From: an uncultured Nitrososphaerota archaeon
Lineage (GTDB): Archaea; Thermoproteota; EX4484-205; JAAOZO01
DNA length: 64,000 bases
Assembly: GCA_964408285.1 (NCBI GenBank)
Contig: CAYOYV010000005.1
Location: 32,001-96,000, forward strand
Direction: 5' to 3'
Position 1 is the first letter of the stretch. Every line of letters begins with the position of its first letter. The position numbers and the translations under genes were made by a program. The notes beneath the pieces are model-generated. The model was given only the letters and a program-made list of their open reading frames with translations, ran no database searches and was not told where the DNA came from. This document shows, one piece after another, positions 26,354 to 39,421 of the stretch.

Positions 26354-27316
26354 CTATGGGGGATAGCCCAGTGTGTAAATGTGCCTTCCTCCCTCGGCCA
26401 GCGGGCCCTTAACGACTGAATCGATCTCCTCATGTGGCCTCTGAGTTAGCTCATCGGCAGGCGGCAGCTTCCCTGGTGGGAATTTCGTCATGATCTCGTT
26501 ATGGAGCTCAACGACGTAGTCGAGCAGCGCTTCAAGACCGAATTGTGCTTTCTCAGCCTTCGCCAAGGTTGCCTTGCCTATGCAGCCTTGGGGGTATGCA
26601 ACGACTTCGATTGGCCCGCATCCGACCTGCCCATACCAACTTATGGGTCTCTGGTACACATTCCCTGCCTTGTCTATGTGCTTCGCGGCGATGTACGCGA
26701 TTGGCTTCGTGTCGACTGCTTTTCTCATATCAATGAATTCTGGGAAAAGAGCCAGAGAGAATGATGTCTCCACTTCGTCTGCATGGACGAACTGGGTTTC
26801 GAACGGCCCCCCATGCTCACGATCCTTGACGAACCCGGGGATTGCATGATACCAATTCAGATTCACGAAAACCCCAGGCACCTGGTATCTCTTGGCGAAC
26901 TGGTGCATTGCTGATGGAATCACGTATTCTTGGCCATGGCCGTTTAAGAGCACCTGCTTCCTGAATCCAGCATTCCAGAATCCTGCCATGATGCCTCTTA
27001 TAGATGCCTTGAAGATATCATCGTCAACGAAGACCGTTCCCGGCATCCCCATATGGTGAAAAGGATGAGACCCATACCAGACTGGCATCGCAACTGTGCA
27101 TCCGGTCTTTTCAGCTACAAGTTCAGCCATCCTTGTTACGAGGTATGTATCCTCACCCGTGCACGCGTGGGGTCCATGAGCTTCAGTGCTTCCGAGAGGT
27201 ATGATTATGAGGTCATTTCTCTTAAGCCTCTCCTGTATCTGAGCGCCGGTCATGTTCTGAAAGTATATTCCGGAGGGAGACTCCATCTGACCACTCTTGG
27301 GAAACTTCCATTCCAT
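26354..27316 (-). CDS. iolN: Creatininase-family 3-dehydro-scyllo-inosose hydrolase
   Basis: GIYFQNMT, PLGSTEAHGPH...GEDT, WYGSHPFHH, NGHGQE and HADEVETS, in an inositol gene context. Start is ATG 27316 or 27352. Confidence 0.85.
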   Translation of the reverse strand: MEWKFPKSGQMESPSGIYFQNMTGAQIQERLKRNDLIIIPLGSTEAHGPHACTGEDTYLVTRMAELVAEKTGCTVAMPVWYGSHPFHHMGMPGTVFVDDDIFKASIRGIMAGFWNAGFRKQVLLNGHGQEYVIPSAMHQFAKRYQVPGVFVNLNWYHAIPGFVKDREHGGPFETQFVHADEVETSFSLALFPEFIDMRKAVDTKPIAYIAAKHIDKAGNVYQRPISWYGQVGCGPIEVVAYPQGCIGKATLAKAEKAQFGLEALLDYVVELHNEIMTKFPPGKLPPADELTQRPHEEIDSVVKGPLAEGGRHIYTLGYPP

Positions 27317-27438
27317 GTTTCCTTGAGATAGATCGAACGATGATTTAAGCATGACTTGGCTCTCTAGCTTGACTTATTCGTGAGATTCGATGCCATTTTC
27401 CCCGAAGCGATTCTGATTGGCAAGAGATGTTTTTGGGC

Positions 27439-28248
27439 TTAGAGATATGTCTTATGCACCATGGACCTGAGGAATCGGATTGTCTCGGCAAGGACAACCT
27501 CAGAGCAAGGCGCTTGAAGGATCTCAGCGGAAAGGTACTGGTCATATCGGACCCTATTCAATGCCCTGAGTAACTGGAGGAACGGGATGTGTCCCTTGCC
27601 TGGGGCATTTCTATTGCTATCTGCTATGTGGACATGCTTGAGAAGATTGCCCGCCATAGCTATCGCCCCAGGCATCGATGGTTCCTCTATGTTCATATGA
27701 AACGAATCGAGTAGGATGCCCACATCTCTGAGCTCATTTTTCCTGATGAATGAAGCGGCTTCCGCTGCAGTGTTAAGGAACGGACTTTCATATCTGTTCA
27801 TCGGTTCCAGCACTGCCCTCAATCCCTTCAATTGCTGCAAGGATTTCCCCAGCGCCCTTTGGCTAGAAGCTTTGCCAGGCTGGCCCTTGATGGAACCTAC
27901 TATGACAGGACAATCGAAAGCTTCCGCCAATTTGGAGAAATTCAAAACACGAGCGACAGCTTTCTGCCTTATCGATTCAGATGGAGAACTCAACGAAAGG
28001 CCCTCCATAGCAGCTAGGCCGGTTCCTATTGCAGCTAGAGTCATTTCATATCTTGAGACTAAGCTTTCAAGAATCCTGGGATTGGCATCATCACTTCGCC
28101 TAAGCAGCAACTCGAATCCATTGTATCCCAATCTACTTAGCACCCGAACAGTAGTTTCCAGTGACCCGCAGAACGAGAATGGTACATGGGCGACGGGGCA
28201 TACAGACGCAGAAACCTTTGGGCCAGATGAAGGAGCGCGCTCTCTCAT
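27439..28248 (-). CDS. iolO: Sugar isomerase/epimerase TIM barrel, likely 5-keto-L-gluconate epimerase
   Basis: IGTG, LEPMNRYE, LLDSFHMNIEE, HVHIADSNRNAPGKGH and SAEIL. Lies between iolN and iolM. Confidence 0.72.
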   Translation of the reverse strand: MRERAPSSGPKVSASVCPVAHVPFSFCGSLETTVRVLSRLGYNGFELLLRRSDDANPRILESLVSRYEMTLAAIGTGLAAMEGLSLSSPSESIRQKAVARVLNFSKLAEAFDCPVIVGSIKGQPGKASSQRALGKSLQQLKGLRAVLEPMNRYESPFLNTAAEAASFIRKNELRDVGILLDSFHMNIEEPSMPGAIAMAGNLLKHVHIADSNRNAPGKGHIPFLQLLRALNRVRYDQYLSAEILQAPCSEVVLAETIRFLRSMVHKTYL

Positions 28249-28368
28249 TTGGTGACTTCCTCTGTCCGCGATATATATCTTCTACATCAGATTGGCTTCA
28301 GTCTTGGAGCTGGAGCATATCAAAGACTTATATGTGATATAGCTCGATCTGTCTATTGCAGTAGGAGA

Positions 28369-29553
28369 ATGACCTCAGATACCAAAATGCATGCTGCTCT
28401 TTTGGAGGCCAGATGGGAACCGAGGTCGAGCTACAAGCTCTCAGAAGACGAAATAGCCACTCATCGCACATATTTCGGGGCTCAGACCTGGAGAGATCCT
28501 AGGCTGGTTCTAAGGGATGTTCGGAAGCCAGAGATCCGGTCGAAGGATGTTCTGCTTAGGGTAAGAGCGACAGGTATCTGCGGGAGCGATGTCCATATGG
28601 TCGAAAAGGACGGCGATGGTTACATGCTATATCCCGGGCTGACCAAGCTCCCGGTGATACCAGGTCATGAGGTCTCAGGTGAGATTGTTGAGGTCGGAGC
28701 CGATGTCAGGACTCTCAAGATCGGAGATTCGGTGACGTGTGAGGAGATGTGGTGGTGTGGGGAATGTGATGCTTGCCGCACCGACAATCTGAATCAATGC
28801 CATAATCTTGAGGAAATGGGATTTACAGCCAACGGTGGCTTTGCCGAATTCCTGGCTGTCAACCACAAATACTGTTGGAAGGCTAACGACCTGGTGGAGG
28901 TCTATGGCTCGGATGATTTGTTCGAGGCCGCCGCCACCACGGAGCCCTCTGCTGTTGCCTACAACGCCATTTTCAATAGAGCAGGAGGTTTCAAGCCCGG
29001 CGCCTATGTGGTGATATGGGGTGCTGGGCCAATAGGGCTGGCATCTCTCGCTCTCTGCAAAGCTGCGGGGTCAGGGAGGTTGACTGTCTTCGAGACCAGC
29101 CCAAATAGAAGGTCAATGGCCATGGCGATGGGGGCAGATGACGTTTTCGATCCTATCGAGCTTTCGAAGCGAGGGGTAGAACCTTTCGAGAGGATCTTGG
29201 ATGTATCCGGTGGCTCGGGGGCTGACTTCATGGTCGAGGCAGCTGGAGCCCCAACTTCGACGTTGCCGCAGATGAACAAGGCTCTGGCAATCGGCGCTAA
29301 AATAGCTTGGATAGGCCGTGCAAACGTCGAATCTTCGATATTCGTCGAGCTATTCCAGACTCATGCCTCACAGCTATTTGGTTCCCAGGGACACTCCGGA
29401 TATGGGACGTTCAGAAATGTCTTGAGATTGATGGCTGCGGGCAGGATAGACATGAGGAAGATGATAACGTCGAGGATAACGATCGATGAGATTCCAGCAT
29501 ACATAGAGAGACTCATTAAGAAGGAAGAAGTGAAGGTCATGGTAAAACCATAG
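28369..29553 (+). CDS. iolM: Zn-dependent (MDR) scyllo-inosose 3-dehydrogenase
   Basis: GICGSDVHM, GYMLYPGLTKLPVIPGHE, EEMWWCGECDAC...C, GAGPIG and GSQGHSGYGTF. Confidence 0.85.
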   Translation: MTSDTKMHAALLEARWEPRSSYKLSEDEIATHRTYFGAQTWRDPRLVLRDVRKPEIRSKDVLLRVRATGICGSDVHMVEKDGDGYMLYPGLTKLPVIPGHEVSGEIVEVGADVRTLKIGDSVTCEEMWWCGECDACRTDNLNQCHNLEEMGFTANGGFAEFLAVNHKYCWKANDLVEVYGSDDLFEAAATTEPSAVAYNAIFNRAGGFKPGAYVVIWGAGPIGLASLALCKAAGSGRLTVFETSPNRRSMAMAMGADDVFDPIELSKRGVEPFERILDVSGGSGADFMVEAAGAPTSTLPQMNKALAIGAKIAWIGRANVESSIFVELFQTHASQLFGSQGHSGYGTFRNVLRLMAAGRIDMRKMITSRITIDEIPAYIERLIKKEEVKVMVKP

Positions 29554-29630
29554 CAGCAAGCCATGCATCGTGACGTCCTACGATCTGGCTCTTGGTGGCT
29601 CAAGCATTCTTCGATATCTTGCCTCTCGAG

Positions 29631-30644
29631 CTATTGAACGGCATCGACCGTGATCGGGACTCCCCTACTAGCCGACAATTTGCATGCCTCCGCGATCTCA
29701 ACGGCTCTAAGGCCATCGAGAACAGAGACCAAGGGCTGAGAGCGATTCAGAATGGACCTGATGAAGCTTCTGTCTTCCTCAACAAACGCGTTTCTGAATC
29801 TCCGCATGAACCATTGCCTGCCGCCATGCCTTATACCCTCTTGATCGGCGAAAGTAAGCATGGTGTCGCTCATGTCTCCGACCTGTATTGTGGCATCGCT
29901 TCCCACAATCTCGGTTCTCAAGTCATATCCATAGTTGCTTTTCCTGATTCCCTCGACGTAGCCATGCGCGGCGGAATCGAAGGTAAGAAGAACAGACGCT
30001 ACATCGTAGTCGCCCTTTTCCCCAATTTCCGTACTTAGGAGACTGGACCCCCTGGCATAGGCGCTTGTTACCTCGCTGTCTAGCATGTTTCTTGCCATGT
30101 CAAAATCATGAGATAGCATGTCGTAGAATATGCCGCCGCTCAAGCTTGGATCGGCAGCCCAACCCTGGGGAGGTGATGGGTCGTGAGCTATCGCTCTATA
30201 CAATATTGCCTTGCCCAAGTATGCCTGTTGGATTCTTTTCTTGGCCTCCAGGTAATATTCGTCGAATCTTCTCATATAGCCAACTTGAGCAATCAGTCCT
30301 GACTCTTCAGTTTTTCTCACAATCCCCTTGGCTTCCTCCAGTGATCTCGCTAAAGGTTTCTCGACTAGTACATTTTTCCCTGCATTGAGCGATGACAGAG
30401 CGACGACAGAATGGAGGTTAGTGGGAACGGAGACGACGACTGCTTGCACATCTCGCCTATCCAGAGCCTCCTCATAATCGATTGCCGAATCAACCTGCAA
30501 TTTCCTGCCTAGCTCCTTCGCTAGTTCTTCTCTTTCATCGATTACGCATCTCAATGTCGCTTCCTGGATTTCCGACCTGAAGATCTCAGCATGGAGTGAG
30601 CCTGCCCTGCCCATTCCTACCACGCAGACTCCGACAGAATCCAT
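29631..30644 (-). CDS. iolG: Gfo/Idh/MocA oxidoreductase, inositol 2-dehydrogenase-like
   Basis: GMGRAG, VEKPLA, VGYMRRFD, DPSPP, SGGIFYDMLSHDFDMAR and YGYDLRTEIVG. Confidence 0.8.
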   Translation of the reverse strand: MDSVGVCVVGMGRAGSLHAEIFRSEIQEATLRCVIDEREELAKELGRKLQVDSAIDYEEALDRRDVQAVVVSVPTNLHSVVALSSLNAGKNVLVEKPLARSLEEAKGIVRKTEESGLIAQVGYMRRFDEYYLEAKKRIQQAYLGKAILYRAIAHDPSPPQGWAADPSLSGGIFYDMLSHDFDMARNMLDSEVTSAYARGSSLLSTEIGEKGDYDVASVLLTFDSAAHGYVEGIRKSNYGYDLRTEIVGSDATIQVGDMSDTMLTFADQEGIRHGGRQWFMRRFRNAFVEEDRSFIRSILNRSQPLVSVLDGLRAVEIAEACKLSASRGVPITVDAVQ

Positions 30645-30762
30645 GACTCAACCTCGGAGCTTGACTAGATAATCATTCTGCTCGGTCGTCGGACCTCAAT
30701 CCGCCGACATTTATGAAATCCATTTTCGGAAAGCGCCTCAACGAGGAATTGGCTTCTCTCCG

Positions 30763-31722
30763 TCAACGCTTCTGGCCCATAAGCTTCGCAAAAGCTGTGT
30801 AGAGGACGCCCTTGGCTGCGTTAATGACTTCAAGGCCTTCTTGGTCACCCTCTGGCTTGACTTCGAAGGATAGAGCGCCTTTGTAACCAATTCCACGAAG
30901 GACTTGCAGCAATTGCATCACATCATCGATGGAATTGATGGCTCCCTTCCTATAGAAGCCGGGATGCCAATCCTTCATTGAGCCATCCACGATCTTAGCA
31001 CAACCTATGTGCACATGCGTGATCAACTCCTTGAAGTCCGTGAGCAGAGATGGTTTCTCGTTCAACAATGGTCCATGGCTTAGGTCCCACAATATGCCGA
31101 TATTCTGGCATTTCTTTCGGACCTGTTTCACAACCTCAGCTGCCTCACCAATGGGACCGATAAGTTGCTTCTTGTCATGATCCCTGTCAAACGTCTCAAG
31201 GTGCACGAAAACCTTGGCATCTCGGGCTTCGGATGTTATTTCCACTAGGCTCTTGACAAGCATTCCAATGGCCTCTTGCCTATCTGTAACAGAGGGGTCA
31301 GGGCCTGAGCACAAGACAACGGACTTGGCTCCCATCCGTGAGGCTCGCACAATGGCTTCTCTCAGAGCATTCACCGATTCCCTTCTATGCGCTTCATCTA
31401 GGGCGCTTGGATTTCTTCCATCAGATAGGATCATAGGTTGGAGGCCGACGAAAACGGATTTTGAGGACCGAGAGACGATCGGTTGTATCTCTCTCCACAC
31501 CTCTTCCTTAAAAGGTGGAACTTCGATAAGATCGAAAAAAGGGTCCTCTGCAATGTCTTGGACAACTTCTTTCCATTTCCGGGCATCATTCGCCTGAGGA
31601 AAAGCGGCGAAGCTGACCAGGCCTATCTCCCACGGGAGCTTACCTCCATGTTCGGAACCACGCGTCTCGTGGTAGCCCAAGATCAAAGTCATGGCCTCGA
31701 CAATCCAGTCAGCCTTTCGCAT
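30763..31722 (-). CDS. Sugar phosphate isomerase/epimerase (xylose isomerase-like TIM barrel), function unknown
   Basis: Metal-ligand motifs HLETFD, LWDLSHGPL, HVHIG, DWHP and SFEVKP. Confidence 0.8.
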   Translation of the reverse strand: MRKADWIVEAMTLILGYHETRGSEHGGKLPWEIGLVSFAAFPQANDARKWKEVVQDIAEDPFFDLIEVPPFKEEVWREIQPIVSRSSKSVFVGLQPMILSDGRNPSALDEAHRRESVNALREAIVRASRMGAKSVVLCSGPDPSVTDRQEAIGMLVKSLVEITSEARDAKVFVHLETFDRDHDKKQLIGPIGEAAEVVKQVRKKCQNIGILWDLSHGPLLNEKPSLLTDFKELITHVHIGCAKIVDGSMKDWHPGFYRKGAINSIDDVMQLLQVLRGIGYKGALSFEVKPEGDQEGLEVINAAKGVLYTAFAKLMGQKR

Positions 31723-31847
31723 TTAAGTGTTGAATCGGGATCCCGCTCCTCCATTGAGCCTCTCAGGAAAATGAAGAATAGGGACAGGATGCAGTGTCTT
31801 AGATTGATCGTTGATGAATGCGAGTCGACAAGAGCAGAGTGCTGCTA

Positions 31848-33410
31848 TCAGTGCTTCCTCTCGTCAATTCTCAAAGCCTTCAAGTGAAGTTCAAGATTCT
31901 TTGCTATAGTCTCGTAGTATTCCTCTTCGTTGTCAATCAAGACCTCCATGATTCTGTCCTTCAGTGATCTTTTGCCCTTTCCAGACTGGGCCTTTTGGAC
32001 TGAGCCAAAGGTGACATGCAACAGCTGTCTTCCGCTGTTCTGACTCAAGAATACCCTTTCCAGATCGGCATCGCTCACGGATTCGGGGTTTGGGATCATA
32101 TCAAGTCGTGTTCCTATTGCATAGTAGCTTCGGTCGGTCTCGAACGTGCCCATGCAATACTGCGCGATTTCCCTGAATAATTGCGGATCGTGTCTCGCGA
32201 CAACGCGCAGGGACTCGAGGTAGCTTGTACCAGCAGTCTTCAGATGAAAAAGCCCATCAGTTGCACTGGCAAGGATCGGATACACCGAAAACTTGTCGCT
32301 TCCCGAATGGATGCTCAGTAGGTAAGGACCGCATGACTTCGATATGGCCACATGTTCGGCAAGCGTTTCCCTGAACTCAGTTAAATCCCCTTGATAGTCG
32401 ATGCCCTTCTCGAAGATGCCCACGAAGTGAACAGCGATGCTGCGTGCCATCACGCCTAGTCTCCTCAGCTCTGACGCTATGAAGAGATGCTCGAGAGAGC
32501 TGGTTGGATGCCTTGTCTCATCGAAAGATACTTCAAGGTCGAAGGGTCTTCCGTTGAAGAGATCAGCCAGCCGGTTGCCTAGTTTCGCGGCATGGATTAT
32601 CGCATTTGAATATCTCACGGCAATTCTGGTCAGATCCAGCTGGGAGAACTGAAGCTCCACTGTTTCGTTGCAAGCATGAATATTGAATTTCCTATCCAGA
32701 TACATGCGCGTGAACTCGTCAGGACTGCACTTCATCCATTCCCACCGTATCTGCTCGAACTTCTTCGCGAGATCCCTATTGTCATATTCGTCAGCGCGGT
32801 CATCAACCAGATCTGAGGGATCAATGGTGTACATGGTAAAGCCCGCATTGAAGGTCTTCAACAAGTCCTCTTCACTCTTCAGATGGTCCGCGTCAGAACC
32901 GAATCCGCCGGTATATCCCTCCTGGAATACTGCCCAAGATACGTCATCCATGACCTGTTCTGGTGACCTACCCGTCTTCACCATCTCGCGAATAGATTGC
33001 TGGGCTAGAACAGGAAAGACTTTGAATCTCCTAAAGGCTCGGATATGTCCCGGTGTCGCAAGACCGATCCTATCCCCTGCCCCTACAGCCGTCTCATTGC
33101 CTATCGGCATTGGCCTTGTGAAGGAGAAAACACCGCGTATCGCGTCTGCGTTCAAGTGATTGCAGGGGCATAGGAGATAACGGAATTCCCTCCCATCTGC
33201 CTTGAATTCTCCACTTTCCTCCGGCGCGAAGCTACTGCTCGCTGAATCTGGTGTTGACCGATCACGAAGTATGACCAGCTTCCGCGTTGCTTTCTCTCTA
33301 ACCAAGAGGAAGATGAGACTATCGGCCTCGAAGACCGAGGAAGGATAGATCACCATCGTGCGATTCAGATTGCAGAGGCGGTTCTGAAACTCGCGAACAG
33401 CTTCTTTCAT
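31848..33410 (-). CDS. uxaE: Tagaturonate/fructuronate epimerase
   Basis: GAGDRIGLATPGH, AQQSIREM, GSDADHLK, TIDPS, EVSFDET, SIHSGSDKF, HLKTAGTSYLE and RQLLHVTFGS. ATG 33410 lies 4 bp after the upstream stop. Confidence 0.92.
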   Translation of the reverse strand: MKEAVREFQNRLCNLNRTMVIYPSSVFEADSLIFLLVREKATRKLVILRDRSTPDSASSSFAPEESGEFKADGREFRYLLCPCNHLNADAIRGVFSFTRPMPIGNETAVGAGDRIGLATPGHIRAFRRFKVFPVLAQQSIREMVKTGRSPEQVMDDVSWAVFQEGYTGGFGSDADHLKSEEDLLKTFNAGFTMYTIDPSDLVDDRADEYDNRDLAKKFEQIRWEWMKCSPDEFTRMYLDRKFNIHACNETVELQFSQLDLTRIAVRYSNAIIHAAKLGNRLADLFNGRPFDLEVSFDETRHPTSSLEHLFIASELRRLGVMARSIAVHFVGIFEKGIDYQGDLTEFRETLAEHVAISKSCGPYLLSIHSGSDKFSVYPILASATDGLFHLKTAGTSYLESLRVVARHDPQLFREIAQYCMGTFETDRSYYAIGTRLDMIPNPESVSDADLERVFLSQNSGRQLLHVTFGSVQKAQSGKGKRSLKDRIMEVLIDNEEEYYETIAKNLELHLKALRIDERKH

Positions 33411-33414
33411 GATA

Positions 33415-35571
33415 TCAGTCTCGTTTGCCGCCCCGAGCTGAGGTGGCTGTCTCCTTGACGATGGCCATGGCAACGTCCCTAAATGTGCTGTATGCCCTGT
33501 TGAACTCAGTCATTGTCTTCACTACCGCGCCAAATGCTCCCCATTCATTCTGTAGGAGGCCCTCAACATCAGGTTCACATTCAATGCCGATTGCATTCAG
33601 TCTCTTGCTCAAGTCAGGCGAAATCCCATAGGCAAGTCTGAAATCCGAAACATTCGAAAGACGCCTCAATACGCTAGGGTTGGCGGGGTGCGTCATACTG
33701 TTGTCATAGTGCATCAGATTGAAACCTTCTTGGCGCGATGCATTCGATAGGGCCAACTGCTGACTGGGGAATTCCGTATTAGTGACATTCTTCCTTCCTA
33801 GGGTAAGTAGCGTGTCTTCAGGTTTCCTCTTTGAAGCAGGAAGCAAGTCGATCTTGCTCAGTATATCCTCAGCTTGGTTTTTCGCCAGACCGTATTGGCT
33901 CCTGAGATGGTTGAGCCACTTGATTCTGTTCTCGGACGAGAAGAAGATCCAATACACCTTTCTCGAGATCAAAGTGCCAGAATGGCCGATTGCATTCTCC
34001 ATTTCTGTCAATGTCTCAACTATCTGCCGCCGCACCTTTTCATCAGATCCTTGGGGGGTCACAGCCTCAACGAAACTGGGATTGATGAGGCTTTTGAGGA
34101 ATTGAAAAGAGCATAGTATCCTTATTCTGTCATCGATCCCATGGAACTTCTCAAATTCCTTGAGGGCATGAAGTCGCTCAGCAAGCGTTGTCAGTATGGC
34201 TTCTTTATTACTCGAGCTCTTCAGGGTTTGCCGCAGAATCCTTTCAGCCTCGATCTCCCTTAGGTGACTCTCCAATCTACCACCCATATTTGTTTCGTAC
34301 GTTTGAGTTATGGATATTCCCATCTTCCTGGCTTTCGCCATACCCTTCATTGCTGCTATGATTAGCTCGGCCTCTTGCCCCACCGTGTATGTGACGGTGT
34401 TATTTGTTCCAATGCCCATCTCATTCAGGGCCGTTGTGATCTGAGCAGCTGCGGGACTTTGAGCCGCTATCTTGAACACGATGTTGGGCCTAGCTCTCTC
34501 CGGAACACGCGAATATCCCCACAGTAGATAGCTATCATACTCAGCCAAGAATCTAGAGGCGGAAGAGTAGATTCTAATTGCATCCTTCAAGCTCAGTTCG
34601 ACACTGTCTGCAACTCCTGGATTCAGCTGGTAGCTGACTAGCCCGTCATGCAATTTCGATAGGAGAGCGATCGGTCTGAAGATCGCTAGATTGGGCCAAA
34701 GGGCGGTCATGGTGGCCTCCATAGCGATCTCATCCGCGAATTGCTCCGGTTGATCATGCCATTCGGGGTGTAGCTTGATTGTCTTTGCAAACTCTCCCCA
34801 AAGATTCGAATCGTCCTCGTAAGCCCTCGCGGCCAGGACCGGATTCGTTGACACTTGTACGAAGCCCAGATGTCGCAGCCATCTTAATCCAATCGCGTAG
34901 TCATTACCGAACTTGCAGAGTCCCAGTTTTGCCATCCTGAAATACACGTTCCCTTCTATCGATCTCCTCGATGCCATGACGAGAGAGGAGGCCGGACTCG
35001 AACGATCAAGGCTGCTCTCTATTTCACTTGCCATGCTTGAAACAAGGCTCTCGCCTTTTGCCACCTTCTTGGCATCCTCTATGAACCTTTCTGAGACAGC
35101 ATTGGCTACGGTTGTCTTGAGTAGGCCCATTGTCGACACTTCATTGTTCTCCCATGTCTTCAGGGCATTCATGATCTCTCCGAATGTGAGTTCAGTTTCC
35201 TCACTCGAGAAGCCGACCCTATTGGCTTCAGTCCCTATGATATTGAGTGCCACCTCGACTAGCAGCTCATACGCCCGCTGGCGCGCTCTTATCTTCGTTT
35301 TCTGGATTTCCTGAGGTTCCTCGGGAGAGATCTCACTTCTGGCAAACTCCAGATTGAGTTGGCGAATCACATTGCCGACAGTTTCGCTTAGCGCCCCCAC
35401 CATCTCGGTGTGAAGTAAATGGTCAGCTGCCAATTGGGGATAGCCGTCCATTGCAATCCTGACAATATGGTTGGAATGATCCAGGCCTTCAAAAGCAGGA
35501 CGCAGTTTCTCAGGACTGGCCTCACATAGAACTGAGCGAACATCAACAATCGGCCGTGTCCCTCCCGCCAT
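33415..35571 (-). CDS. Large (718 aa) transaldolase-family protein
   Basis: GND, VSTNP, VSYQLNP, VFKIA (Schiff-base Lys), NNTVTYT, MGGRL, PASKR and VTNTEFP, with a long helical N-terminal extension and insertions. Confidence 0.8.
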   Translation of the reverse strand: MAGGTRPIVDVRSVLCEASPEKLRPAFEGLDHSNHIVRIAMDGYPQLAADHLLHTEMVGALSETVGNVIRQLNLEFARSEISPEEPQEIQKTKIRARQRAYELLVEVALNIIGTEANRVGFSSEETELTFGEIMNALKTWENNEVSTMGLLKTTVANAVSERFIEDAKKVAKGESLVSSMASEIESSLDRSSPASSLVMASRRSIEGNVYFRMAKLGLCKFGNDYAIGLRWLRHLGFVQVSTNPVLAARAYEDDSNLWGEFAKTIKLHPEWHDQPEQFADEIAMEATMTALWPNLAIFRPIALLSKLHDGLVSYQLNPGVADSVELSLKDAIRIYSSASRFLAEYDSYLLWGYSRVPERARPNIVFKIAAQSPAAAQITTALNEMGIGTNNTVTYTVGQEAELIIAAMKGMAKARKMGISITQTYETNMGGRLESHLREIEAERILRQTLKSSSNKEAILTTLAERLHALKEFEKFHGIDDRIRILCSFQFLKSLINPSFVEAVTPQGSDEKVRRQIVETLTEMENAIGHSGTLISRKVYWIFFSSENRIKWLNHLRSQYGLAKNQAEDILSKIDLLPASKRKPEDTLLTLGRKNVTNTEFPSQQLALSNASRQEGFNLMHYDNSMTHPANPSVLRRLSNVSDFRLAYGISPDLSKRLNAIGIECEPDVEGLLQNEWGAFGAVVKTMTEFNRAYSTFRDVAMAIVKETATSARGGKRD

Positions 35572-35865
35572 GACGAGATATGGGCTTCGTTTCTTATTTA
35601 ATTGTTGAGGCGGCTCTCTTTTTCGTCACGAGGATCTAGAACCAACTTTCTGTAACACACCCCACTTCGTCGCGCGCGCGCTTTGCGTTGTCATGTTATC
35701 GTGGCGAGCTTGAGAAACAGAAGGAGTGATGCTACGCGCGCCGATCGCTATTCCGTTGGATCTACGCATTTCGAGCGGCTCCTTCAGTTCGGCCACCAAA
35801 CAGCTGCAGTTCAGTGCCGAAATATTGAAATCGGGCAATCTGGGCATTCTGCAGCAAATATCCTC

Positions 35866-37608
35866 ATGGCCTTTCGCAACATAATTAGGCTTTTGGGCTA
35901 TCTGAAGAGATACTGGCCGTATGTGATAGCCTCGGTGATAGCGATATTGGCGCTTTCAGGGTTGGATAACTTGACACCGCTCGTGATAATGTCCGCCATA
36001 GACAACATGGTTTCAAATCAGGTTTTCTCAGATCTTCTCATGTACGGCGCGGTATTCGTTGGGGTTGCGTCGATTAGGGGAGTCATCAGATTCCTTACCC
36101 AGTATGGCAACCAGTATGTGAGCAATAGACTCGCTTTCGATCTTCGAAACGACCTGTTCAAGGCCCTTCAGTCCCAGTCATTCACCTTCTACGACAAGGC
36201 AAGGACCGGCCAGCTCATGGCCAGATTGACAAGCGATGTAGACGAAATTCGCTGGTCATTCGGGATGATGATCCCTGCTACATCCAATATGTTGGTGACA
36301 TTCGCCATGGCGATTGTGATAATGCTCTCATTGGATTTCACAGTCTCCATATATTCCATGGCAATCTTCCCGATTCTCATCATACTGGTCGTTAGGTTTG
36401 CCAACTTGACGGGGCCACTTTTCACAGAAATAAGGAAGGGAGTGGGAAATCTATCAGCTGTAGTGCAGGAGAATCTCTCAGGAGTTAAAATCGTAAGAGC
36501 CTTCTCCGCCGAGGAGCAAGAGACTGCCAAATTCGACTTGAATGCAGAGCGTCTGCTAGATCTTTCGCTCCAGGTCGATAGGGCAAGAGCGATATACATG
36601 CCGATGATTTCCCTTGTGGTCGGTGCCGGATCTGCATTCATAATCCTATTCGGTGGCTTGCAGGTCATCCAAGGGATGATTACACTTGGATCAATGGTAG
36701 CCCTTGTTTCTTATCTCAACATGGTCGCGGGGCCAATAAGGATGATGGGATTCTGGATTGAGGGAATTAGGAGAGCCCTAGCCGGAGCGAATCGAATATT
36801 TGAGATACTAGATGCACCTGTGGCAATCACAGAGAGGCAGGGCGCCTCGGACATCGGAGAAACAGATGGGAGAGTATCATTCCAGAATGTCACTTTTCAA
36901 TACGCTGATCATCCGACACTTATTGATGTCAGCTTTGACGCCAAGTCGGGAGAAAAGATTGCGGTCGTAGGAAGGACAGGATCCGGAAAAACGACGATTC
37001 TGAACCTTATTCCAAGATTCTACGATGTCAATTCAGGAAAGATCACTATCGATGGTGTCGATGTGAGAGACATCAAGATCGATTCACTGAGAAGGATAGT
37101 TGGAGTGGTCCCTCAGGAGCCCTTCATATTCCCGACCAGTATCAGGGACAATATAACGCTCGGGGACAAGTCCTTCACCCAAGATCAGGTTGAGGCGGCG
37201 GCCAAAGCTGCCCAGATTCATGATTTCATAGTCTCCCTGCCGGAGGGATATGATAGCCTCGTGGGAGAGAGGGGCGTAACCCTATCGGGGGGTCAAAGAC
37301 AAAGGCTTTCCATTGCAAGGGCTATTCTCAGATCACTCGGCATAGTACTCTTGGATGATTCAACCTCGCAGGTTGATGTGGCAACTGAGAAACAGATAGA
37401 CAAAGCTCTTGACTCATTGCTCAGGAACAGGACATCATTCATCATCACAAACAGGATCTCAACCGCGGCGAAATCGGATCGCGTCATCCTTTTGGACATG
37501 GGGAAGGTGATCGCCATAGATACACATGAGAACCTCCTGAAGAAAAATGAACTCTATAGGGAGATATTTCGCAGCCAGATTGCAGAAGTCCTAGGAGGAA
37601 CTGAGTGA
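35866..37608 (+). CDS. Heterodimeric ABC exporter subunit (TMD+NBD) with degenerate catalytic residues
   Basis: About 6 TM helices, GRTGSGKT, LSGGQRQR, Walker B LLDDSTS (Glu to Asp) and switch TNR (His to Asn). ATG 35866. Confidence 0.9.
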   Translation: MAFRNIIRLLGYLKRYWPYVIASVIAILALSGLDNLTPLVIMSAIDNMVSNQVFSDLLMYGAVFVGVASIRGVIRFLTQYGNQYVSNRLAFDLRNDLFKALQSQSFTFYDKARTGQLMARLTSDVDEIRWSFGMMIPATSNMLVTFAMAIVIMLSLDFTVSIYSMAIFPILIILVVRFANLTGPLFTEIRKGVGNLSAVVQENLSGVKIVRAFSAEEQETAKFDLNAERLLDLSLQVDRARAIYMPMISLVVGAGSAFIILFGGLQVIQGMITLGSMVALVSYLNMVAGPIRMMGFWIEGIRRALAGANRIFEILDAPVAITERQGASDIGETDGRVSFQNVTFQYADHPTLIDVSFDAKSGEKIAVVGRTGSGKTTILNLIPRFYDVNSGKITIDGVDVRDIKIDSLRRIVGVVPQEPFIFPTSIRDNITLGDKSFTQDQVEAAAKAAQIHDFIVSLPEGYDSLVGERGVTLSGGQRQRLSIARAILRSLGIVLLDDSTSQVDVATEKQIDKALDSLLRNRTSFIITNRISTAAKSDRVILLDMGKVIAIDTHENLLKKNELYREIFRSQIAEVLGGTE

Positions 37609-37612
37609 GATT

Positions 37613-39421
37613 ATGGGAGTCTGGATGGTCAGAGCAGGCGAAGAGGAAACCGAAAGGAAGACTCCTGATTCAGTTTTGGCAAGGAAGATGCTGAGGTTCC
37701 TCAAACCCTATTCTGCCAGAATCTATCTTTCCCTATTCCTAATATTGCTCGGCACGATCTTCGCCACCCTTGGTCCCTATATCCTGTCTTTGGTCGTGAA
37801 TTCAGCGATATATTCGAAGGATACTCAAGGCCTGATATTCCTTTCACTCGTATTCCTGGGCATCCAGTTACTCGATTGGATTGCGGGGTCTGTGAGGACA
37901 TACGTAATCGGTTCACTAGCTGACACAACATTAAAGGACATAAGGCACGAGGTCTTCCAGAAGCTCCAGACGCTTTCGCTGGACTACTATAGCAAGCGAC
38001 AGGTCGGATGGCTATTCTCAAGAGTAATATCTGATGTTAGCACTGTAAACAATTTGGTAGCTTCAGGTCTCTTGACGTCCTTGAGTGACCTACTGCTAGT
38101 GACTGGTATGACCATCGCTATGCTGATATTGAGTCCAATCATGACATTGGTCGCGCTTTCCATGGTTCCAGTCGTGGTCTTTTTCTCTCTGGCATTCGCA
38201 AAGCAAGCTAGAGATCGCTTCAGAGTCAGCAGGAGAAAGATTGCATCAGTTTCGTCTGAGGTACAACAATCTATAACGGGCATAAGAGTCATCAAGGCGT
38301 TCTCTCAGGAAGAGCAGTCGCAAAGGAACTTCGAAAGGGCGAATGTGCAGTATGTAGAGGCCGAGATGTCAGCAGCAGTTGTCATGGCCAGCTTTAGACC
38401 TGTAGCTGAGCTTATTGAGGCAGTTGACATGGGCCTCATCTTGCTCGTTGGGGGATATGAAGTCGTCTCAGGAGCCCTACTCGTTGGCACACTGCTGGCC
38501 TTCGTGACCTATGCCAGCAGATTTTTCTGGCCCGTCAGGGAGATAACATTTCTGTATAACAACCTGCAAGAGGCGATGGCTGCCTCGGAGAGGATTCTGG
38601 AAGTGCTTGAGACTCAGCCGACGATAACCGACGACCCCGAAGCGATTGACGCACCTCAGCACATAAGAAATGTCGAATTCGCCAATGTCTCATTCGAATA
38701 TCAGAGTGGGTTAGAGGTCCTGAAGGACATCACCCTTACGATTAGAGAGAAAGAGAAGGTCGCAGTTGTCGGCCCCACGGGGGCAGGCAAAACCACCCTC
38801 TCTTCTTTGCTCGTCAGATTCTATGATCCAACAAGAGGAGCGATTTCGATCAATGGAACTGACATCAGAAAGCTGAAAGTCAGAACGCTAAGGAGAAGAA
38901 TTGTCCTCGTGCCACAAGAACCATTTCTTTTCTCGGGAACGATTATGGACAATCTCAGGTATGGAAGACCCGATGCAAGCGATGAAGAGATACTACAGGC
39001 AACCAAAGAGCTCAAGTTGGATTCATTCATAGGATCGCTAGAAAATGGGTATGAAACGGAAGTCCTGGAAGGAGGTTTGGGGCTCTCTGTGGGTCAGAAA
39101 CAGCTGATCTCCATCGCGAGGGCATTCATCGCTGATCCTTCCATTGTGGTCTTTGACGAAGCAATGTCTTCAATTGACCCGAACACCGAGCAGACGATAA
39201 TCGGAGCCATGAGGAAATTGCTTGAGAACAGAACCGCCTTAATAATCGCCCATCGTATCTCAACGATTGTGGATGCAGATCGGATATTAGTCATGGATGT
39301 CGGGAAGATCGTTGAGGAGGGGAGTCACTCGGATCTTATGGCGCTAGGTGGCCTGTATTCGAAGCTTTACACTACCCTTCTGCTCGGCGAAGAACAGGCT
39401 GTGGCCACCCCTAGAGAATAA
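37613..39421 (+). CDS. Heterodimeric ABC exporter subunit (TMD+NBD)
   Basis: GPTGAGKT, degenerate signature LSVGQKQL, VFDEAMS and IAHR. Starts 4 bp after its partner. Confidence 0.9.
   Translation: MGVWMVRAGEEETERKTPDSVLARKMLRFLKPYSARIYLSLFLILLGTIFATLGPYILSLVVNSAIYSKDTQGLIFLSLVFLGIQLLDWIAGSVRTYVIGSLADTTLKDIRHEVFQKLQTLSLDYYSKRQVGWLFSRVISDVSTVNNLVASGLLTSLSDLLLVTGMTIAMLILSPIMTLVALSMVPVVVFFSLAFAKQARDRFRVSRRKIASVSSEVQQSITGIRVIKAFSQEEQSQRNFERANVQYVEAEMSAAVVMASFRPVAELIEAVDMGLILLVGGYEVVSGALLVGTLLAFVTYASRFFWPVREITFLYNNLQEAMAASERILEVLETQPTITDDPEAIDAPQHIRNVEFANVSFEYQSGLEVLKDITLTIREKEKVAVVGPTGAGKTTLSSLLVRFYDPTRGAISINGTDIRKLKVRTLRRRIVLVPQEPFLFSGTIMDNLRYGRPDASDEEILQATKELKLDSFIGSLENGYETEVLEGGLGLSVGQKQLISIARAFIADPSIVVFDEAMSSIDPNTEQTIIGAMRKLLENRTALIIAHRISTIVDADRILVMDVGKIVEEGSHSDLMALGGLYSKLYTTLLLGEEQAVATPRE

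What the first reader, a model, noticed from the sequence alone, without database searches (positions are those of the whole stretch)
31848..35571. Giant atypical transaldolase coupled to uxaE: candidate new keto-uronate (fructuronate) cleavage route
Seen: a 718-aa transaldolase-family gene ends 4 bp before uxaE, and no uxuB, uxuA, kdgK or eda is present in the window. The Schiff-base Lys (VFKIA), STNP and Asp (GND) are kept. The acid/base Glu position reads SYQL (Gln, as in F6P aldolase), and the Phe/Tyr position of SPFVGR reads TNMGGR, so by eye neither canonical catalyst is present. Established: UxaE converts tagaturonate to fructuronate, which has the fructose C3/C4 stereochemistry; sulfofructose transaldolase (sulfo-TAL pathway) acts on a non-phosphorylated, C6-anionic fructose analogue. 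Inference: this enzyme may transfer dihydroxyacetone from fructuronate to GAP, giving F6P plus tartronate semialdehyde and bypassing the mannonate/KDG route.
Basis: partly seen in the sequence, partly recalled or inferred. Interest (0 to 1): 0.82.

Follow-up and report, generated by a model that had tools for sequence, protein, structure and literature searches.

The report
Giant transaldolase-like enzyme beside uxaE
An archaeal inositol-breakdown gene cluster carries an unusually large, uncharacterised transaldolase-like enzyme right next to tagaturonate epimerase, and the genomic evidence suggests it splits the sugar acid fructuronate in place of the usual downstream pathway, which this genome lacks.

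Summary
A 718-aa TAL/FSA-family gene (33415..35571, minus strand) stops 4 bp before a full-length uxaE. Its Schiff-base Lys, Asn and Thr are kept. The catalytic Glu is Gln and the Phe/Tyr position is Met, and both are invariant in 32 aligned homologues.

- The 93.7%-complete genome gave no UxuA, UxuB, Eda or transketolase hit.
- In 401 genomes of the phylum, 31 of 33 with a UxaE-family gene also carry the giant TAL, and only 2 of the 33 have UxuA.
- Across 90 loci a UxaE-family gene is the commonest neighbour (21 loci; 13 of 33 dereplicated lineages).
- Other recurrent neighbours are a xylose-isomerase-like TIM protein, a glyoxylate/hydroxypyruvate reductase, IolB and glycerate kinases. These fit conversion of tartronate semialdehyde to glycerate.

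Against it:
- 25 of 56 giant-TAL genomes have no UxaE-family hit.
- Only 3 of 56 also carry a canonical TAL.
- Many carry transketolase, so a housekeeping role is not excluded.

Nothing is shown biochemically. I read it as a probable keto-uronate (fructuronate) transaldolase or aldolase (about 0.5), a new variant of a known enzyme kind.

The parts
33415..35571 (-). Giant TAL/FSA-family protein (718 aa, P0001). An N-terminal helical domain (about 1-215) is followed by a complete (beta/alpha)8 barrel. Strands lie at 220-223, 237-242, 311-315, 364-369, 388-394, 424-428, 574-578 and 596-600. A helical insert of about 140 aa sits between strands 6 and 7, and a C-terminal helical extension follows.
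   Evidence: PF00923, 36.2 bits; invariant D224, S241-T242-N243-P244, Q315, K367, N390, T392, T427, M429, G430-G431-R432, H436, R438, L577-P578-A579-S580-K581-R582 then P584 (K583 nearly invariant), T597, T599-E600-F601-P602, K685-T686; AF2 pLDDT 91.9, pTM 0.91; Foldseek best hits are transaldolases 7bbx, 3clm and 3r5e, with TM about 0.7 on target length; hhalign to TalB.
31848..33410 (-). uxaE, tagaturonate/fructuronate epimerase family (520 aa). Its ATG lies 4 bp after the TAL stop codon.
   Evidence: PF16257, 520.9 bits, profile 1-475/475; junction.
30763..31722 (-). 'TIM319', a xylose-isomerase-like TIM-barrel protein (319 aa). It is proposed here to be a hydroxypyruvate-isomerase-like enzyme acting on tartronate semialdehyde; it could instead be another keto-sugar epimerase.
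   Evidence: PF01261, 80 bits; best NCBIfam hits IolO 51 bits and hydroxypyruvate isomerase 31 bits, both far below their cut-offs; closest solved relative is MJ1311, 3wqo, E 2.6e-6; within 6 genes of the giant TAL in 15 of 90 loci; directly beside a GyaR-type reductase in 8 of those 15.
29631..30644 (-). GFO/IDH/MocA oxidoreductase, IolG-like (337 aa): probable inositol 2-dehydrogenase.
   Evidence: TIGR04380 289.5 bits, cut-off 355; the same cluster lies near the giant TAL in 17 of 90 loci.
28249..29553 (+). iolM, scyllo-inosose 3-dehydrogenase. The profile match starts at residue 47 of the longest ORF, so the real start is probably later.
   Evidence: NF041097 506.7 bits, cut-off 450.
27439..28248 (-). 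IolO-like ketose/keto-uronate epimerase (269 aa): probable 5-keto-L-gluconate to D-tagaturonate epimerase.
   Evidence: NF041099 212.3 bits, best hit but below the cut-off of 300; psicose 3-epimerase 114 bits. IolO function taken from passages of PMC12632266.
26354..27352 (-). iolN, 3-dehydro-scyllo-inosose hydrolase (gives 5-keto-L-gluconate).
   Evidence: NF041098 520.5 bits, cut-off 245.
35594..35601 (-). A/T-rich TTAAATAA element 23-30 nt upstream of the TAL ATG, in the 111-bp divergent intergenic region. It may be an archaeal TATA box, which would imply a very short leader or none.
   Evidence: Seen by eye; not tested (the promoter scanner covers sigma-70 promoters only).

Best explanation
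The 718-aa protein is an active class I (Schiff-base) enzyme of the transaldolase/F6P-aldolase superfamily. It works directly after UxaE.

Proposed route in this archaeon:
- myo-inositol is oxidised (IolG-like, then IolM), ring-opened (IolN) to 5-keto-L-gluconate, and epimerised (IolO-like) to D-tagaturonate and (UxaE) to D-fructuronate.
- D-fructuronate has fructose-type C3/C4 stereochemistry. K367 forms the imine at C2 and the C3-C4 bond is cut.
- The dihydroxyacetone unit stays on the enzyme and is passed to an aldehyde acceptor (GAP, giving F6P) or released as dihydroxyacetone.
- C4-C6 leaves as tartronate semialdehyde. The neighbouring TIM319 protein (Hyi-like), a GyaR-type hydroxypyruvate reductase and a glycerate kinase convert it to phosphoglycerate.

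In other lineages the same enzyme, placed next to IolB, may take 2-deoxy-5-keto-D-gluconate in the same way, giving malonate semialdehyde.

Shown: gene order, family memberships, conserved residues, the fold, absence of hits for UxuA/UxuB/Eda, and the co-occurrence statistics.

Inferred: the substrate, the products, the role of TIM319, and transfer versus release.
For: (1) Coupling. There are 4 bp between the TAL stop and the uxaE start. The junction is bridged by contigs in 3 runs.

(2) The cluster makes the substrate. IolM and IolN score above their curated cut-offs, and the IolO-like and IolG-like genes have those families as best hits. The IolO reaction was read in passages of PMC12632266.

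(3) No usual sink was found in the genome.
- No match for UxuA, Mannitol_dh/UxuB or Eda.
- The single DHDPS-family gene scores best as DapA (160 bits; archaeal KDG-aldolase model 55 bits).
- The best enolase-superfamily gene scores as an Ala-Glu epimerase (248 bits; ManD 62 bits).

(4) Genome-level association in 401 genomes of the phylum.
- Giant TAL in 56; UxaE family in 33; both in 31.
- UxaE family without giant TAL in 2 (G019, G197).
- UxuA over its cut-off in only 2 of the 33 (G100, G371), plus a marginal match in G002.

(5) Neighbourhoods in 90 loci (window, L002, 8 loci from the class, 80 metagenome loci).
- A UxaE-family gene lies within 6 genes in 21 loci and is directly adjacent in 19.
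- After dereplication at 70% identity this is 13 of 33 TAL lineages, spread over at least 10 deep clades of a FastTree.
- Both true UxaE (39-56% identity to the window's) and a divergent UxaE-like subgroup (31% or less; PF16257 84-114 bits) are involved.

(6) Neighbours fit the predicted C3 product.
- TIM319 in 15 of 90 loci.
- Glyoxylate/hydroxypyruvate reductase (NF009714, 600 bits, cut-off 455) in 13 of 90.
- MOFRL glycerate 2-kinase in 8 of 90.
- In the own genome a glycerate kinase (TIGR00045, 314 bits) lies beside the closest GyaR homologue (330 bits, below the 455-bit cut-off) on contig C3.

(7) IolB (TIGR04378, 210.6 bits, cut-off 205) lies within 6 genes in 8 of 90 loci. Its product is another 6-carboxy-2-ketohexose, normally cleaved after phosphorylation to DHAP plus malonic semialdehyde (passage of PMC3176187).

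(8) The catalytic apparatus is intact but not canonical. The Lys, Asp, Asn and Thr and the Arg/Ser/Arg anion site are invariant, while Glu is replaced by Gln and Phe by Met in all 32 homologues.

(9) No transketolase hit in this genome, so a pentose-phosphate role has no partner here.

(10) Precedent: sulfofructose transaldolase converts 6-sulfofructose plus GAP to sulfolactaldehyde plus F6P (passages of PMC11968277).
Against: - No biochemical data and no RNA data exist.
- 25 of 56 giant-TAL genomes in the phylum sample have no UxaE-family hit, including all 8 of genus g6. In the class, only this genome has a strong UxaE.
- 41 of 90 loci show none of the sugar-related neighbour clusters counted. 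Their neighbours include mevalonate genes, seryl-tRNA synthetase, TBP and topoisomerase IB.
- Giant and canonical TAL occur together in only 3 of 56 genomes (G004, G044, G114).
- 8 of the 13 giant-TAL genomes of the class have transketolase. This is what a housekeeping replacement would look like.
- The conserved Arg/Ser/Arg site is the phosphate site of ordinary transaldolases, so a sugar phosphate substrate is equally compatible.
- TIM319 matches hydroxypyruvate isomerase at only 31 bits.
- The window cluster itself has no GyaR or glycerate kinase; they lie on another contig.
- G100 and G371 have the giant TAL, UxaE and UxuA together.
- The hhalign statistics to TalB are weak.
Confidence: 0.5

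Rival explanations
1. It is the housekeeping transaldolase of these archaea (F6P + E4P <-> S7P + GAP), an enlarged analogue of the short canonical enzyme. Its position next to uxaE reflects only that sugar genes cluster.
For: - A canonical TAL accompanies the giant one in only 3 of 56 genomes.
- In genus g6, 8 genomes have only the giant form, 5 only the canonical form, and none has both.
- 7 of those 8 g6 genomes have transketolase.
- The TalB phosphate-binding Arg/Ser/Arg is conserved.
- Many loci have housekeeping neighbours.
- PRPP synthetase (5 loci) and a Fae-HPS fusion (4 loci within 6 genes) are sometimes nearby.
Against: - This genome and both f2 genomes (G001, G002) have the giant TAL but no transketolase hit.
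- The catalytic Glu of transaldolases is Gln in all 32 homologues and the Phe is Met.
- From recalled literature on TalB and the Thermoplasma transaldolase (not read here), Glu-to-Gln cripples transaldolase turnover unless a Tyr is supplied.
- 31 of 33 UxaE-family genomes carry the giant TAL, and adjacency occurs in 13 of 33 lineages. Chance clustering does not explain this.
- Three genomes keep both forms.
Confidence: 0.2
2. It is a Schiff-base aldolase or transaldolase of the same sugar-acid/ketose metabolism but acts on a different substrate. Candidates are a phosphorylated keto-uronate, free fructose or tagatose made by UxaE-like 4-epimerases, 2-deoxy-5-keto-gluconate only, or 5-keto-L-gluconate/tagaturonate.
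For: - The UxaE-like subgroup next to many giant TALs is only 31% or less identical to true UxaE, so its substrate is unknown.
- g6 loci pair the TAL with an IolO-like epimerase, GH42 beta-galactosidase, a class II ketose-bisphosphate aldolase and glycerate 2-kinase, without UxaE.
- Extra invariant or nearly invariant basic residues (K581, K583, H436, R438) lie around the anion site.
- The genome has 7 PfkB and 5 FGGY kinases.
Against: - TAL/FSA enzymes are specific for the 3S,4R configuration (recalled). That excludes tagaturonate and 5-keto-L-gluconate as donors.
- In the window the enzyme is coupled to a full-length true UxaE inside an IolM/IolN cluster, whose known product line ends at fructuronate.
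- No kinase gene lies in the cluster.
Confidence: 0.22
3. It is a non-catalytic or regulatory TAL-fold protein (pseudo-enzyme).
For: Loss of the canonical Glu and Phe/Tyr catalysts; large extra domains of no known family.
Against: The Schiff-base Lys, Asp, Asn, Thr and anion-binding residues are invariant across homologues of 42-56% identity. The barrel is complete and confidently modelled.
Confidence: 0.03

Closest known systems
Sulfofructose transaldolase SftT (sulfo-TAL/sulfo-SFT pathway of Firmicutes)
   Same: A TAL-family enzyme that takes a non-phosphorylated fructose analogue with an anionic C6. It passes the C3 unit to GAP to give F6P and releases a C3 aldehyde-acid that a dedicated reductase handles. 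It is encoded next to the enzyme that makes the ketose (passages of PMC11968277).
   Different: The substrate there is a sulfonate, not a carboxylate, and the hosts are bacteria. P0001 has about 400 extra residues and carries Gln/Met at the two catalyst positions.
Canonical transaldolases (E. coli TalB; N. gonorrhoeae 3clm/7bbx; C. glutamicum 3r5e)
   Same: Same barrel fold (Foldseek E 1.6e-8, TM about 0.7 on target length). The Schiff-base Lys, Asn35, Asn154 and Thr156 equivalents align. The Asp17 and Arg181/Ser226/Arg228 equivalents match by motif.
   Different: Only 10-15% identity. E96 is Gln315 and F178 is Met429. There is an N-terminal domain of about 215 aa, a 140-aa insert between strands 6 and 7, and a C-terminal extension. 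A profile of the family finds only 279 proteins at E <= 0.001 among 1.84 billion representatives; the family composition of those hits was not examined.
Fructose-6-phosphate aldolase FsaA (E. coli)
   Same: Gln at the transaldolase Glu position (FsaA Q59).
   Different: The catalytic Tyr131 of FsaA corresponds to Met429. FsaA has 220 aa. hhalign similarity is negligible (probability 1%).
Thermotoga maritima inositol pathway (IolG/IolM/IolN/IolO) feeding UxaE and the UxuB/UxuA/KdgK/KdgA route
   Same: Same upstream enzymes in one cluster. UxaE was found in T. maritima as the only one of 14 control genomes.
   Different: UxuB, UxuA and Eda were not found here. The giant TAL and TIM319 stand in the cluster instead. 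The T. maritima downstream route is recalled from Rodionova et al. 2012/2013, seen here only as a citation in PMC12632266.
IolC kinase plus IolJ aldolase of Bacillus subtilis
   Same: Cleaves a 6-carboxy-2-ketohexose (2-deoxy-5-keto-D-gluconate) between C3 and C4 of the ketose into a C3 ketone unit plus a C3 aldehyde-acid (PMC3176187 passage). IolB is a recurrent neighbour of the giant TAL.
   Different: IolJ is a class II, metal-dependent aldolase and needs prior ATP-dependent phosphorylation. The proposal here needs neither.
E. coli gcl-hyi-glxR-glxK glyoxylate/tartronate semialdehyde route (recalled, not read here)
   Same: Tartronate semialdehyde is handled by an isomerase of the xylose-isomerase-like TIM family (Hyi), a reductase and glycerate kinase.
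   Different: Here the reductase is a D-2-hydroxyacid dehydrogenase (GyaR type). TIM319 is only distantly like Hyi (31 bits).

Membership tests
Transaldolase/FSA superfamily (PF00923) | Pfam model match above the gathering score | tested here: met
   36.2 bits against a cut-off of 27, residues 232-406 only. It is the only PF00923 match in the genome.
Transaldolase/FSA superfamily (PF00923) | (beta/alpha)8 barrel of transaldolase type | tested here: met
   AF2 model with pLDDT 91.9 and eight strands. The top 20 Foldseek PDB hits are all transaldolases or aldolases of this family.
Transaldolase/FSA superfamily (PF00923) | Schiff-base lysine on strand 4 | tested here: met
   K367 aligns with TalB K132 and with the Lys of 3r5e and 3clm. 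It is invariant.
Canonical transaldolase (EC 2.2.1.2) | Catalytic Glu (TalB E96) as acid/base with a bound water | tested here: not met
   Q315 aligns with E96. It is Gln in 32 of 32 homologues.
Canonical transaldolase (EC 2.2.1.2) | Phe at TalB position 178 (SPFVGR) | tested here: not met
   The motif reads TNMGGR, with M429 invariant. The correspondence is by motif and strand order, not a printed alignment.
Canonical transaldolase (EC 2.2.1.2) | Phosphate-binding Arg181/Ser226/Arg228 | tested here: inconclusive
   R432, S580 and R582 are invariant and sit at the matching strand ends. No coordinates were available to confirm the geometry.
Canonical transaldolase (EC 2.2.1.2) | Works with transketolase in the non-oxidative pentose phosphate pathway | tested here: not met
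   No Transketolase_N match in this genome (93.7% complete). Transketolase is present in 8 of the 13 giant-TAL genomes of the class.
Canonical transaldolase (EC 2.2.1.2) | F6P/S7P/E4P turnover | not testable with these tools
   Needs an enzyme assay.
Fructose-6-phosphate aldolase (FSA) | Gln at the Glu position together with a catalytic Tyr (FsaA Q59 and Y131) | tested here: not met
   Gln is present (Q315), but Met429 stands at the Tyr position.
Sulfofructose-transaldolase-like (functional analogue) | Sequence or structural kinship to SftT | not tested
   SftT was not fetched or compared. Only its reaction was read.
UxaE, tagaturonate epimerase (PF16257) - the neighbour | Full-length model match | tested here: met
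   520.9 bits, profile 1-475/475.
Thermotoga-type inositol pathway | IolM and IolN equivalog models above their cut-offs | tested here: met
   IolM 506.7 bits (cut-off 450); IolN 520.5 bits (cut-off 245).
Thermotoga-type inositol pathway | IolO and IolG equivalog models above their cut-offs | tested here: inconclusive
   IolO-like 212.3 bits (cut-off 300); IolG-like 289.5 bits (cut-off 355). Each is the best hit for its protein.
Ashwell-type lower hexuronate pathway (UxuB, UxuA, KdgK, Eda) | Presence of UxuA, UxuB and Eda in the genome | tested here: not met
   No match for PF03786, PF01232 or PF01081. Seven unspecific PfkB kinases are present. The genome is 93.7% complete.

The most novel reading that the evidence does not exclude
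A widespread archaeal 'uronate transaldolase shunt'. One giant TAL-fold enzyme takes 6-carboxy-2-ketohexoses: D-fructuronate from hexuronates or from the IolM/IolN inositol route, and 2-deoxy-5-keto-gluconate from the IolB route. It transfers their C1-C3 unit to GAP to make F6P without ATP. The C3 acid-aldehydes (tartronate or malonate semialdehyde) are released and go on to glycerate. This would replace both UxuB/UxuA/KdgK/Eda and IolC/IolJ in Bathyarchaeia-like sediment archaea, Thermofilaceae-like genomes and Ignisphaera.
Probability: 0.35. Interest if true: 0.8.

Novelty: new variant of a known kind. Interest (0 to 1): 0.68.

Why it matters
The family has more than 1,000 members in public data, nearly all unnamed or labelled 'transaldolase family protein'. 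It is present in 56 of 401 sampled genomes of the phylum, including complete single-contig genomes. One genome record with the gene is titled Ignisphaera sp..

If the reading is right, it would:
- define the missing lower half of inositol and hexuronate catabolism in abundant sediment and hot-spring archaea;
- correct the automatic reading of this gene as a pentose-phosphate transaldolase in metabolic reconstructions;
- add a second natural example, after sulfofructose transaldolase, of a TAL that harvests half of a C6-anionic sugar as F6P;
- offer a thermostable C-C bond-forming catalyst for carboxylated ketoses;
- pose a mechanistic question, because the invariant Gln/Met pair leaves open what the acid/base catalyst is.

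If the housekeeping rival is right, the finding is still a useful annotation: an enlarged, mechanistically odd transaldolase that replaces the canonical one.

Tried and rejected
Wider genome context came from the genome search and the metagenome scan instead.
- treekit tree building was killed at 240 s. MAFFT plus FastTree replaced it, midpoint-rooted, with no support values read.
- The Foldseek follow-up library pdb_via was not installed, and no model coordinates reach the script box. A 3-D active-site comparison with TalB, FsaA or SftT could therefore not be done.
- hhalign of A1 against FsaA was negligible (probability 1%). Against TalB it was weak (probability 8%, E 0.004). I use the TalB pairing because it agrees with the HMMER alignments to 3r5e and 3clm and with Foldseek.
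- The ESM Atlas found nothing for the N-terminal 215 residues. For the whole protein it found only unnamed TAL_FSA clusters.
- Expression: no RNA holder was listed among 12 runs, so nothing can be said about expression.
- Literature searches gave the following. 'fructuronate' + 'transaldolase': 3 papers, none on such an enzyme (listing only). 'tagaturonate epimerase' + 'archaea': 3, irrelevant. 'tartronate semialdehyde'/'transaldolase'/'uronate': 25, with nothing relevant among the 15 listed. 'Thermofilum' + 'transaldolase': 0. 'Bathyarchaeota' + 'inositol' + 'transaldolase': 1, irrelevant. These searches cover only the held open-access library.
- Assembly chimera: rejected.
- A DHDPS-type KDG aldolase or a ManD dehydratase as a hidden classical route: the only candidates score best as DapA and as Ala-Glu epimerase.
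- Free-DHA versus transfer mode: no Dak1 hit, but 5 FGGY kinases are present, so this stays undecided.
- A MOFRL glycerate kinase is not found in this genome, but a class I glycerate kinase is present.
- Complex prediction was not used. TAL plus UxaE exceed its size limit, and binding is not claimed.

Full report
**What is in the sequence.** On the minus strand, ORF 33415..35571 encodes a 718-aa protein (P0001). It ends ...GKRD-TGA. Four bases later (TATC) comes the ATG of a 520-aa gene at 33410..31848. The second gene matches the tagaturonate epimerase family UxaE (PF16257) over the whole profile at 520.9 bits. The first matches TAL_FSA (PF00923) at only 36.2 bits, over residues 232-406. Contigs from three public runs of different coded studies bridge the junction at 95% identity or more (X1 30707-35115, X2 32981-34445, X4 33125-33450). 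The arrangement is therefore real, although X1 may be the source sample.

**The protein is a complete but very divergent transaldolase-fold enzyme.** An AlphaFold2 model built on 32 homologues has mean pLDDT 91.9 and pTM 0.91. It shows eight barrel strands, preceded by a helical domain of about 215 aa, interrupted between strands 6 and 7 by about 140 aa of helices, and followed by a helical tail. Foldseek against the PDB returns transaldolases as the best matches (7bbx, 3clm, 3r5e, TalB; E down to 1.6e-8; TM about 0.7 on target length; 10-15% identity).
- hhalign of the family alignment against E. coli TalB pairs N243/N35, Q315/E96, K367/K132, N390/N154 and T392/T156. The statistics are weak, but the pairing agrees with HMMER alignments to 3r5e and 3clm.
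- Motif comparison with TalB and FsaA, fetched from E. coli K-12, places D224 at D17, T427-N-M429-G-G-R432 at S176-P-F178-V-G-R181, and A-S580-K-R582 at A-S226-F-R228.
- All of these residues are invariant in 32 homologues of 42-56% identity.
The Schiff-base machinery and the anion site are kept, the transaldolase Glu is Gln (as in FsaA), and the Phe/Tyr position is Met.

The pair heads a seven-gene block (26354..35571). Downstream lie:
- a 319-aa xylose-isomerase-like TIM protein ('TIM319', 30763..31722);
- an IolG-like oxidoreductase (289.5 bits, cut-off 355);
- IolM (506.7 bits, cut-off 450), on the opposite strand;
- an IolO-like epimerase (212.3 bits, cut-off 300);
- IolN (520.5 bits, cut-off 245).

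This is the Thermotoga-type inositol route, which yields 5-keto-L-gluconate and then D-tagaturonate. The IolO reaction was read in passages of PMC12632266. The original Rodionova 2013 paper was seen only as a citation. UxaE then gives D-fructuronate. The cluster explains where the substrate comes from, and it leaves the giant TAL and TIM319 as the only unassigned enzymes in it.

**Is the usual sink present?** The genome (1.82 Mb, 46 contigs, 93.7% complete) gave no match for:
- UxuA;
- Mannitol_dh/UxuB;
- KDPG aldolase Eda;
- transketolase;
- Dak1;
- MOFRL glycerate kinase.

It does have 7 PfkB kinases, none on the window's contig, and 5 FGGY kinases. It has one DHDPS-family gene that scores best as DapA (160 bits; archaeal KDG-aldolase model 55 bits). 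It also has an enolase-superfamily gene that scores best as an Ala-Glu epimerase (248 bits; ManD 62 bits). The giant protein is the only TAL_FSA match. On contig C3, a class I glycerate kinase (TIGR00045, 314 bits) lies beside the closest homologue (44% identity; 330 bits to the glyoxylate reductase model, below the cut-off of 455) of the reductase that accompanies the giant TAL elsewhere.

**Does the family go with UxaE?** The family is large. One search found 1,034 hits at E <= 0.001 among the 8,000 candidates scored, mostly about 700 aa. The few that carry names are named Bathyarchaeia, Thermoproteota, Thermofilum and one Aerophobetes.
- In the window's class, 13 of 26 genomes have the giant TAL, but only this genome has a strong UxaE.
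- A 401-genome sample of the phylum changes the picture. Giant TAL is in 56 genomes, a UxaE-family match in 33, and both in 31. UxaE family without giant TAL is in 2 (G019, G197), and giant TAL without UxaE family is in 25.
- Six of the 33 are strong UxaE matches (E < 1e-100). The others are a divergent 'UxaE-like' group (70-110 bits, covering from about profile position 155 to between 336 and 470).
- UxuA exceeds its cut-off in 18 of 401 genomes, but in only 2 of the 33 UxaE-family genomes (G100, G371), plus a marginal match in G002.
- These genomes are related, so the counts overstate independence.

**Neighbourhoods.** I called ORFs in 90 loci (the window, L002, 8 loci from the class and 80 metagenome loci) and clustered them by BLASTP.
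- The commonest neighbour within 6 genes is the UxaE-family cluster, in 21 of 90 loci, and it is directly adjacent in 19. Ten of these loci carry true UxaE (39-56% identity to the window's) and 11 carry UxaE-like genes (31% or less; PF16257 is their only Pfam match, 84-114 bits).
- Next come the IolG-like oxidoreductase (17 loci), URO-D-like proteins (17), TIM319 (15), a reductase that is an above-cut-off match to glyoxylate reductase NF009714 (600 bits; 13 loci), IolO-like (9), IolB (TIGR04378, 210.6 bits, cut-off 205; 8), MOFRL glycerate 2-kinase (8), IolM (5) and IolN (5).
- The order TAL-UxaE-TIM319-reductase recurs. TIM319 is directly beside the reductase in 8 of its 15 loci.
- After dereplicating the TALs at 70% identity (33 lineages), a UxaE-family neighbour is seen in 13, TIM319 in 9, the reductase in 9 and the IolG-like gene in 9. 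Of the 33 lineages, 21 have some sugar-acid-type neighbour.
- On a FastTree of 89 sequences these contexts are scattered over at least 10 deep clades.
- Results against: 41 of 90 loci show none of these neighbours. They sit instead next to mevalonate genes, seryl-tRNA synthetase, TBP/topoisomerase IB and the like. Many loci are also short contigs.

**Mechanistic reading.** D-fructuronate has the C3/C4 configuration that this superfamily requires (recalled). Cleavage through the K367 imine would leave a dihydroxyacetone unit on the enzyme and release tartronate semialdehyde.
- A TIM-barrel isomerase of the family that contains hydroxypyruvate isomerase, a glyoxylate/hydroxypyruvate reductase and a glycerate kinase are exactly what is needed to turn that product into phosphoglycerate. 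They are the recurrent neighbours.
- IolB's product, 2-deoxy-5-keto-D-gluconate, is the 5-deoxy analogue. It is normally phosphorylated and split into DHAP and malonic semialdehyde (PMC3176187 passage). A giant TAL next to IolB could do the same without the kinase.
- Sulfofructose transaldolase is a proven precedent for a TAL acting on a C6-anionic, non-phosphorylated fructose analogue with GAP as acceptor (PMC11968277 passages).
- The conserved Arg/Ser/Arg site would be needed in a ping-pong transferase both for the carboxylate of the donor and for the phosphate of GAP/F6P. It therefore does not discriminate between the hypotheses.
- Transfer versus release of DHA cannot be decided. What serves as acid/base in place of Glu/Tyr is unknown.

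**The main rival.** The giant TAL may simply be these archaea's transaldolase.
- For it: canonical and giant forms coexist in only 3 of 56 genomes (G004, G044, G114). In genus g6, 8 genomes have the giant form only, 5 the canonical form only, and none both. Transketolase is present in 8 of the 13 giant-TAL genomes of the class.
- Against it: this genome and both f2 genomes (G001, G002) have the giant TAL without a transketolase hit. The catalytic Glu is universally replaced. The association with the UxaE family is far stronger than shared 'sugar metabolism' would predict.
- I give it 0.2, and a further 0.22 to a related but different substrate.

**Novelty and verdict.** No paper in the searchable library links fructuronate, tartronate semialdehyde or uronates to a transaldolase, or describes this long family (listings only). 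A profile of the family finds 279 proteins at E <= 0.001 and 57 at E <= 1e-30 among 1.84 billion representatives. The ESM Atlas shows only unnamed TAL_FSA clusters.
It passed the genomic tests its author set and gained unforeseen support from the product-handling neighbours. It rests entirely on context, and a credible ordinary alternative remains.
- I classify it as a new variant of a known kind, with confidence about 0.5 in the keto-uronate reading and interest 0.68.

Noticed in passing
window 33415..35571 (N-terminus): The database representative of this protein's own cluster (P0003) is 678 aa, so a gene caller started it 40 codons later. Residues 10-40 are conserved across the family (L23 invariant; D31, H32, H35 nearly invariant), which favours the 718-aa start.
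   Followed up: partly
window 28249..29553: The longest iolM ORF starts with TTG back-to-back with the iolO-like start. The IolM profile match begins only at residue 47, so the true start is probably near 28387, leaving a divergent promoter region.
   Followed up: no
window 35683..39421: Two tandem ABC exporter-type half-transporters (MsbA-like; 641 and 602 aa) are transcribed divergently from the TAL gene. There is no evident link to the sugar cluster.
   Followed up: no
L024:12795-15371: A radical SAM protein of 858 aa contains an intein (Intein_splicing plus Radical_SAM). It is conserved near the giant TAL in the g6 genomes.
   Followed up: no
own genome, many contigs (tblastn): At least a dozen URO-D-like (PF01208) paralogues and many GFO/IDH/MocA oxidoreductases are present in a 1.8-Mb genome. 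URO-D-like genes also flank the giant TAL in 17 of 90 loci. Their role is unknown.
   Followed up: no
L097:6858-8084 and relatives: A Fae-HPS fusion (formaldehyde-activating enzyme plus hexulose-phosphate synthase) lies three genes from the giant TAL in one clade (within 6 genes in 4 loci; the cluster has 5 members). This is a possible link to F6P/pentose metabolism that would favour the housekeeping rival.
   Followed up: partly
L059:1624-3930 and 6 to 9 similar loci: TBP and a eukaryote-type topoisomerase IB sit immediately upstream of the giant TAL, with IolB downstream.
   Followed up: no
P0193, P0213, P0236, P0270: Very long proteins (2,032-4,369 aa) contain a stretch matching profile positions of about 120-344 of the giant-TAL family.
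   Followed up: no
L128:14659-15918 (own genome, contig C12): A LarA-like nickel-pincer racemase (441 bits, just under the cut-off of 460) lies next to the DapA-like gene and an IolM-like dehydrogenase.
   Followed up: no
L120:1495-3733 (own genome, contig C3): A class I glycerate kinase and a GyaR-like 2-hydroxyacid dehydrogenase form a divergent gene pair. This is the likely end of the proposed route, but it is unlinked to the window.
   Followed up: partly
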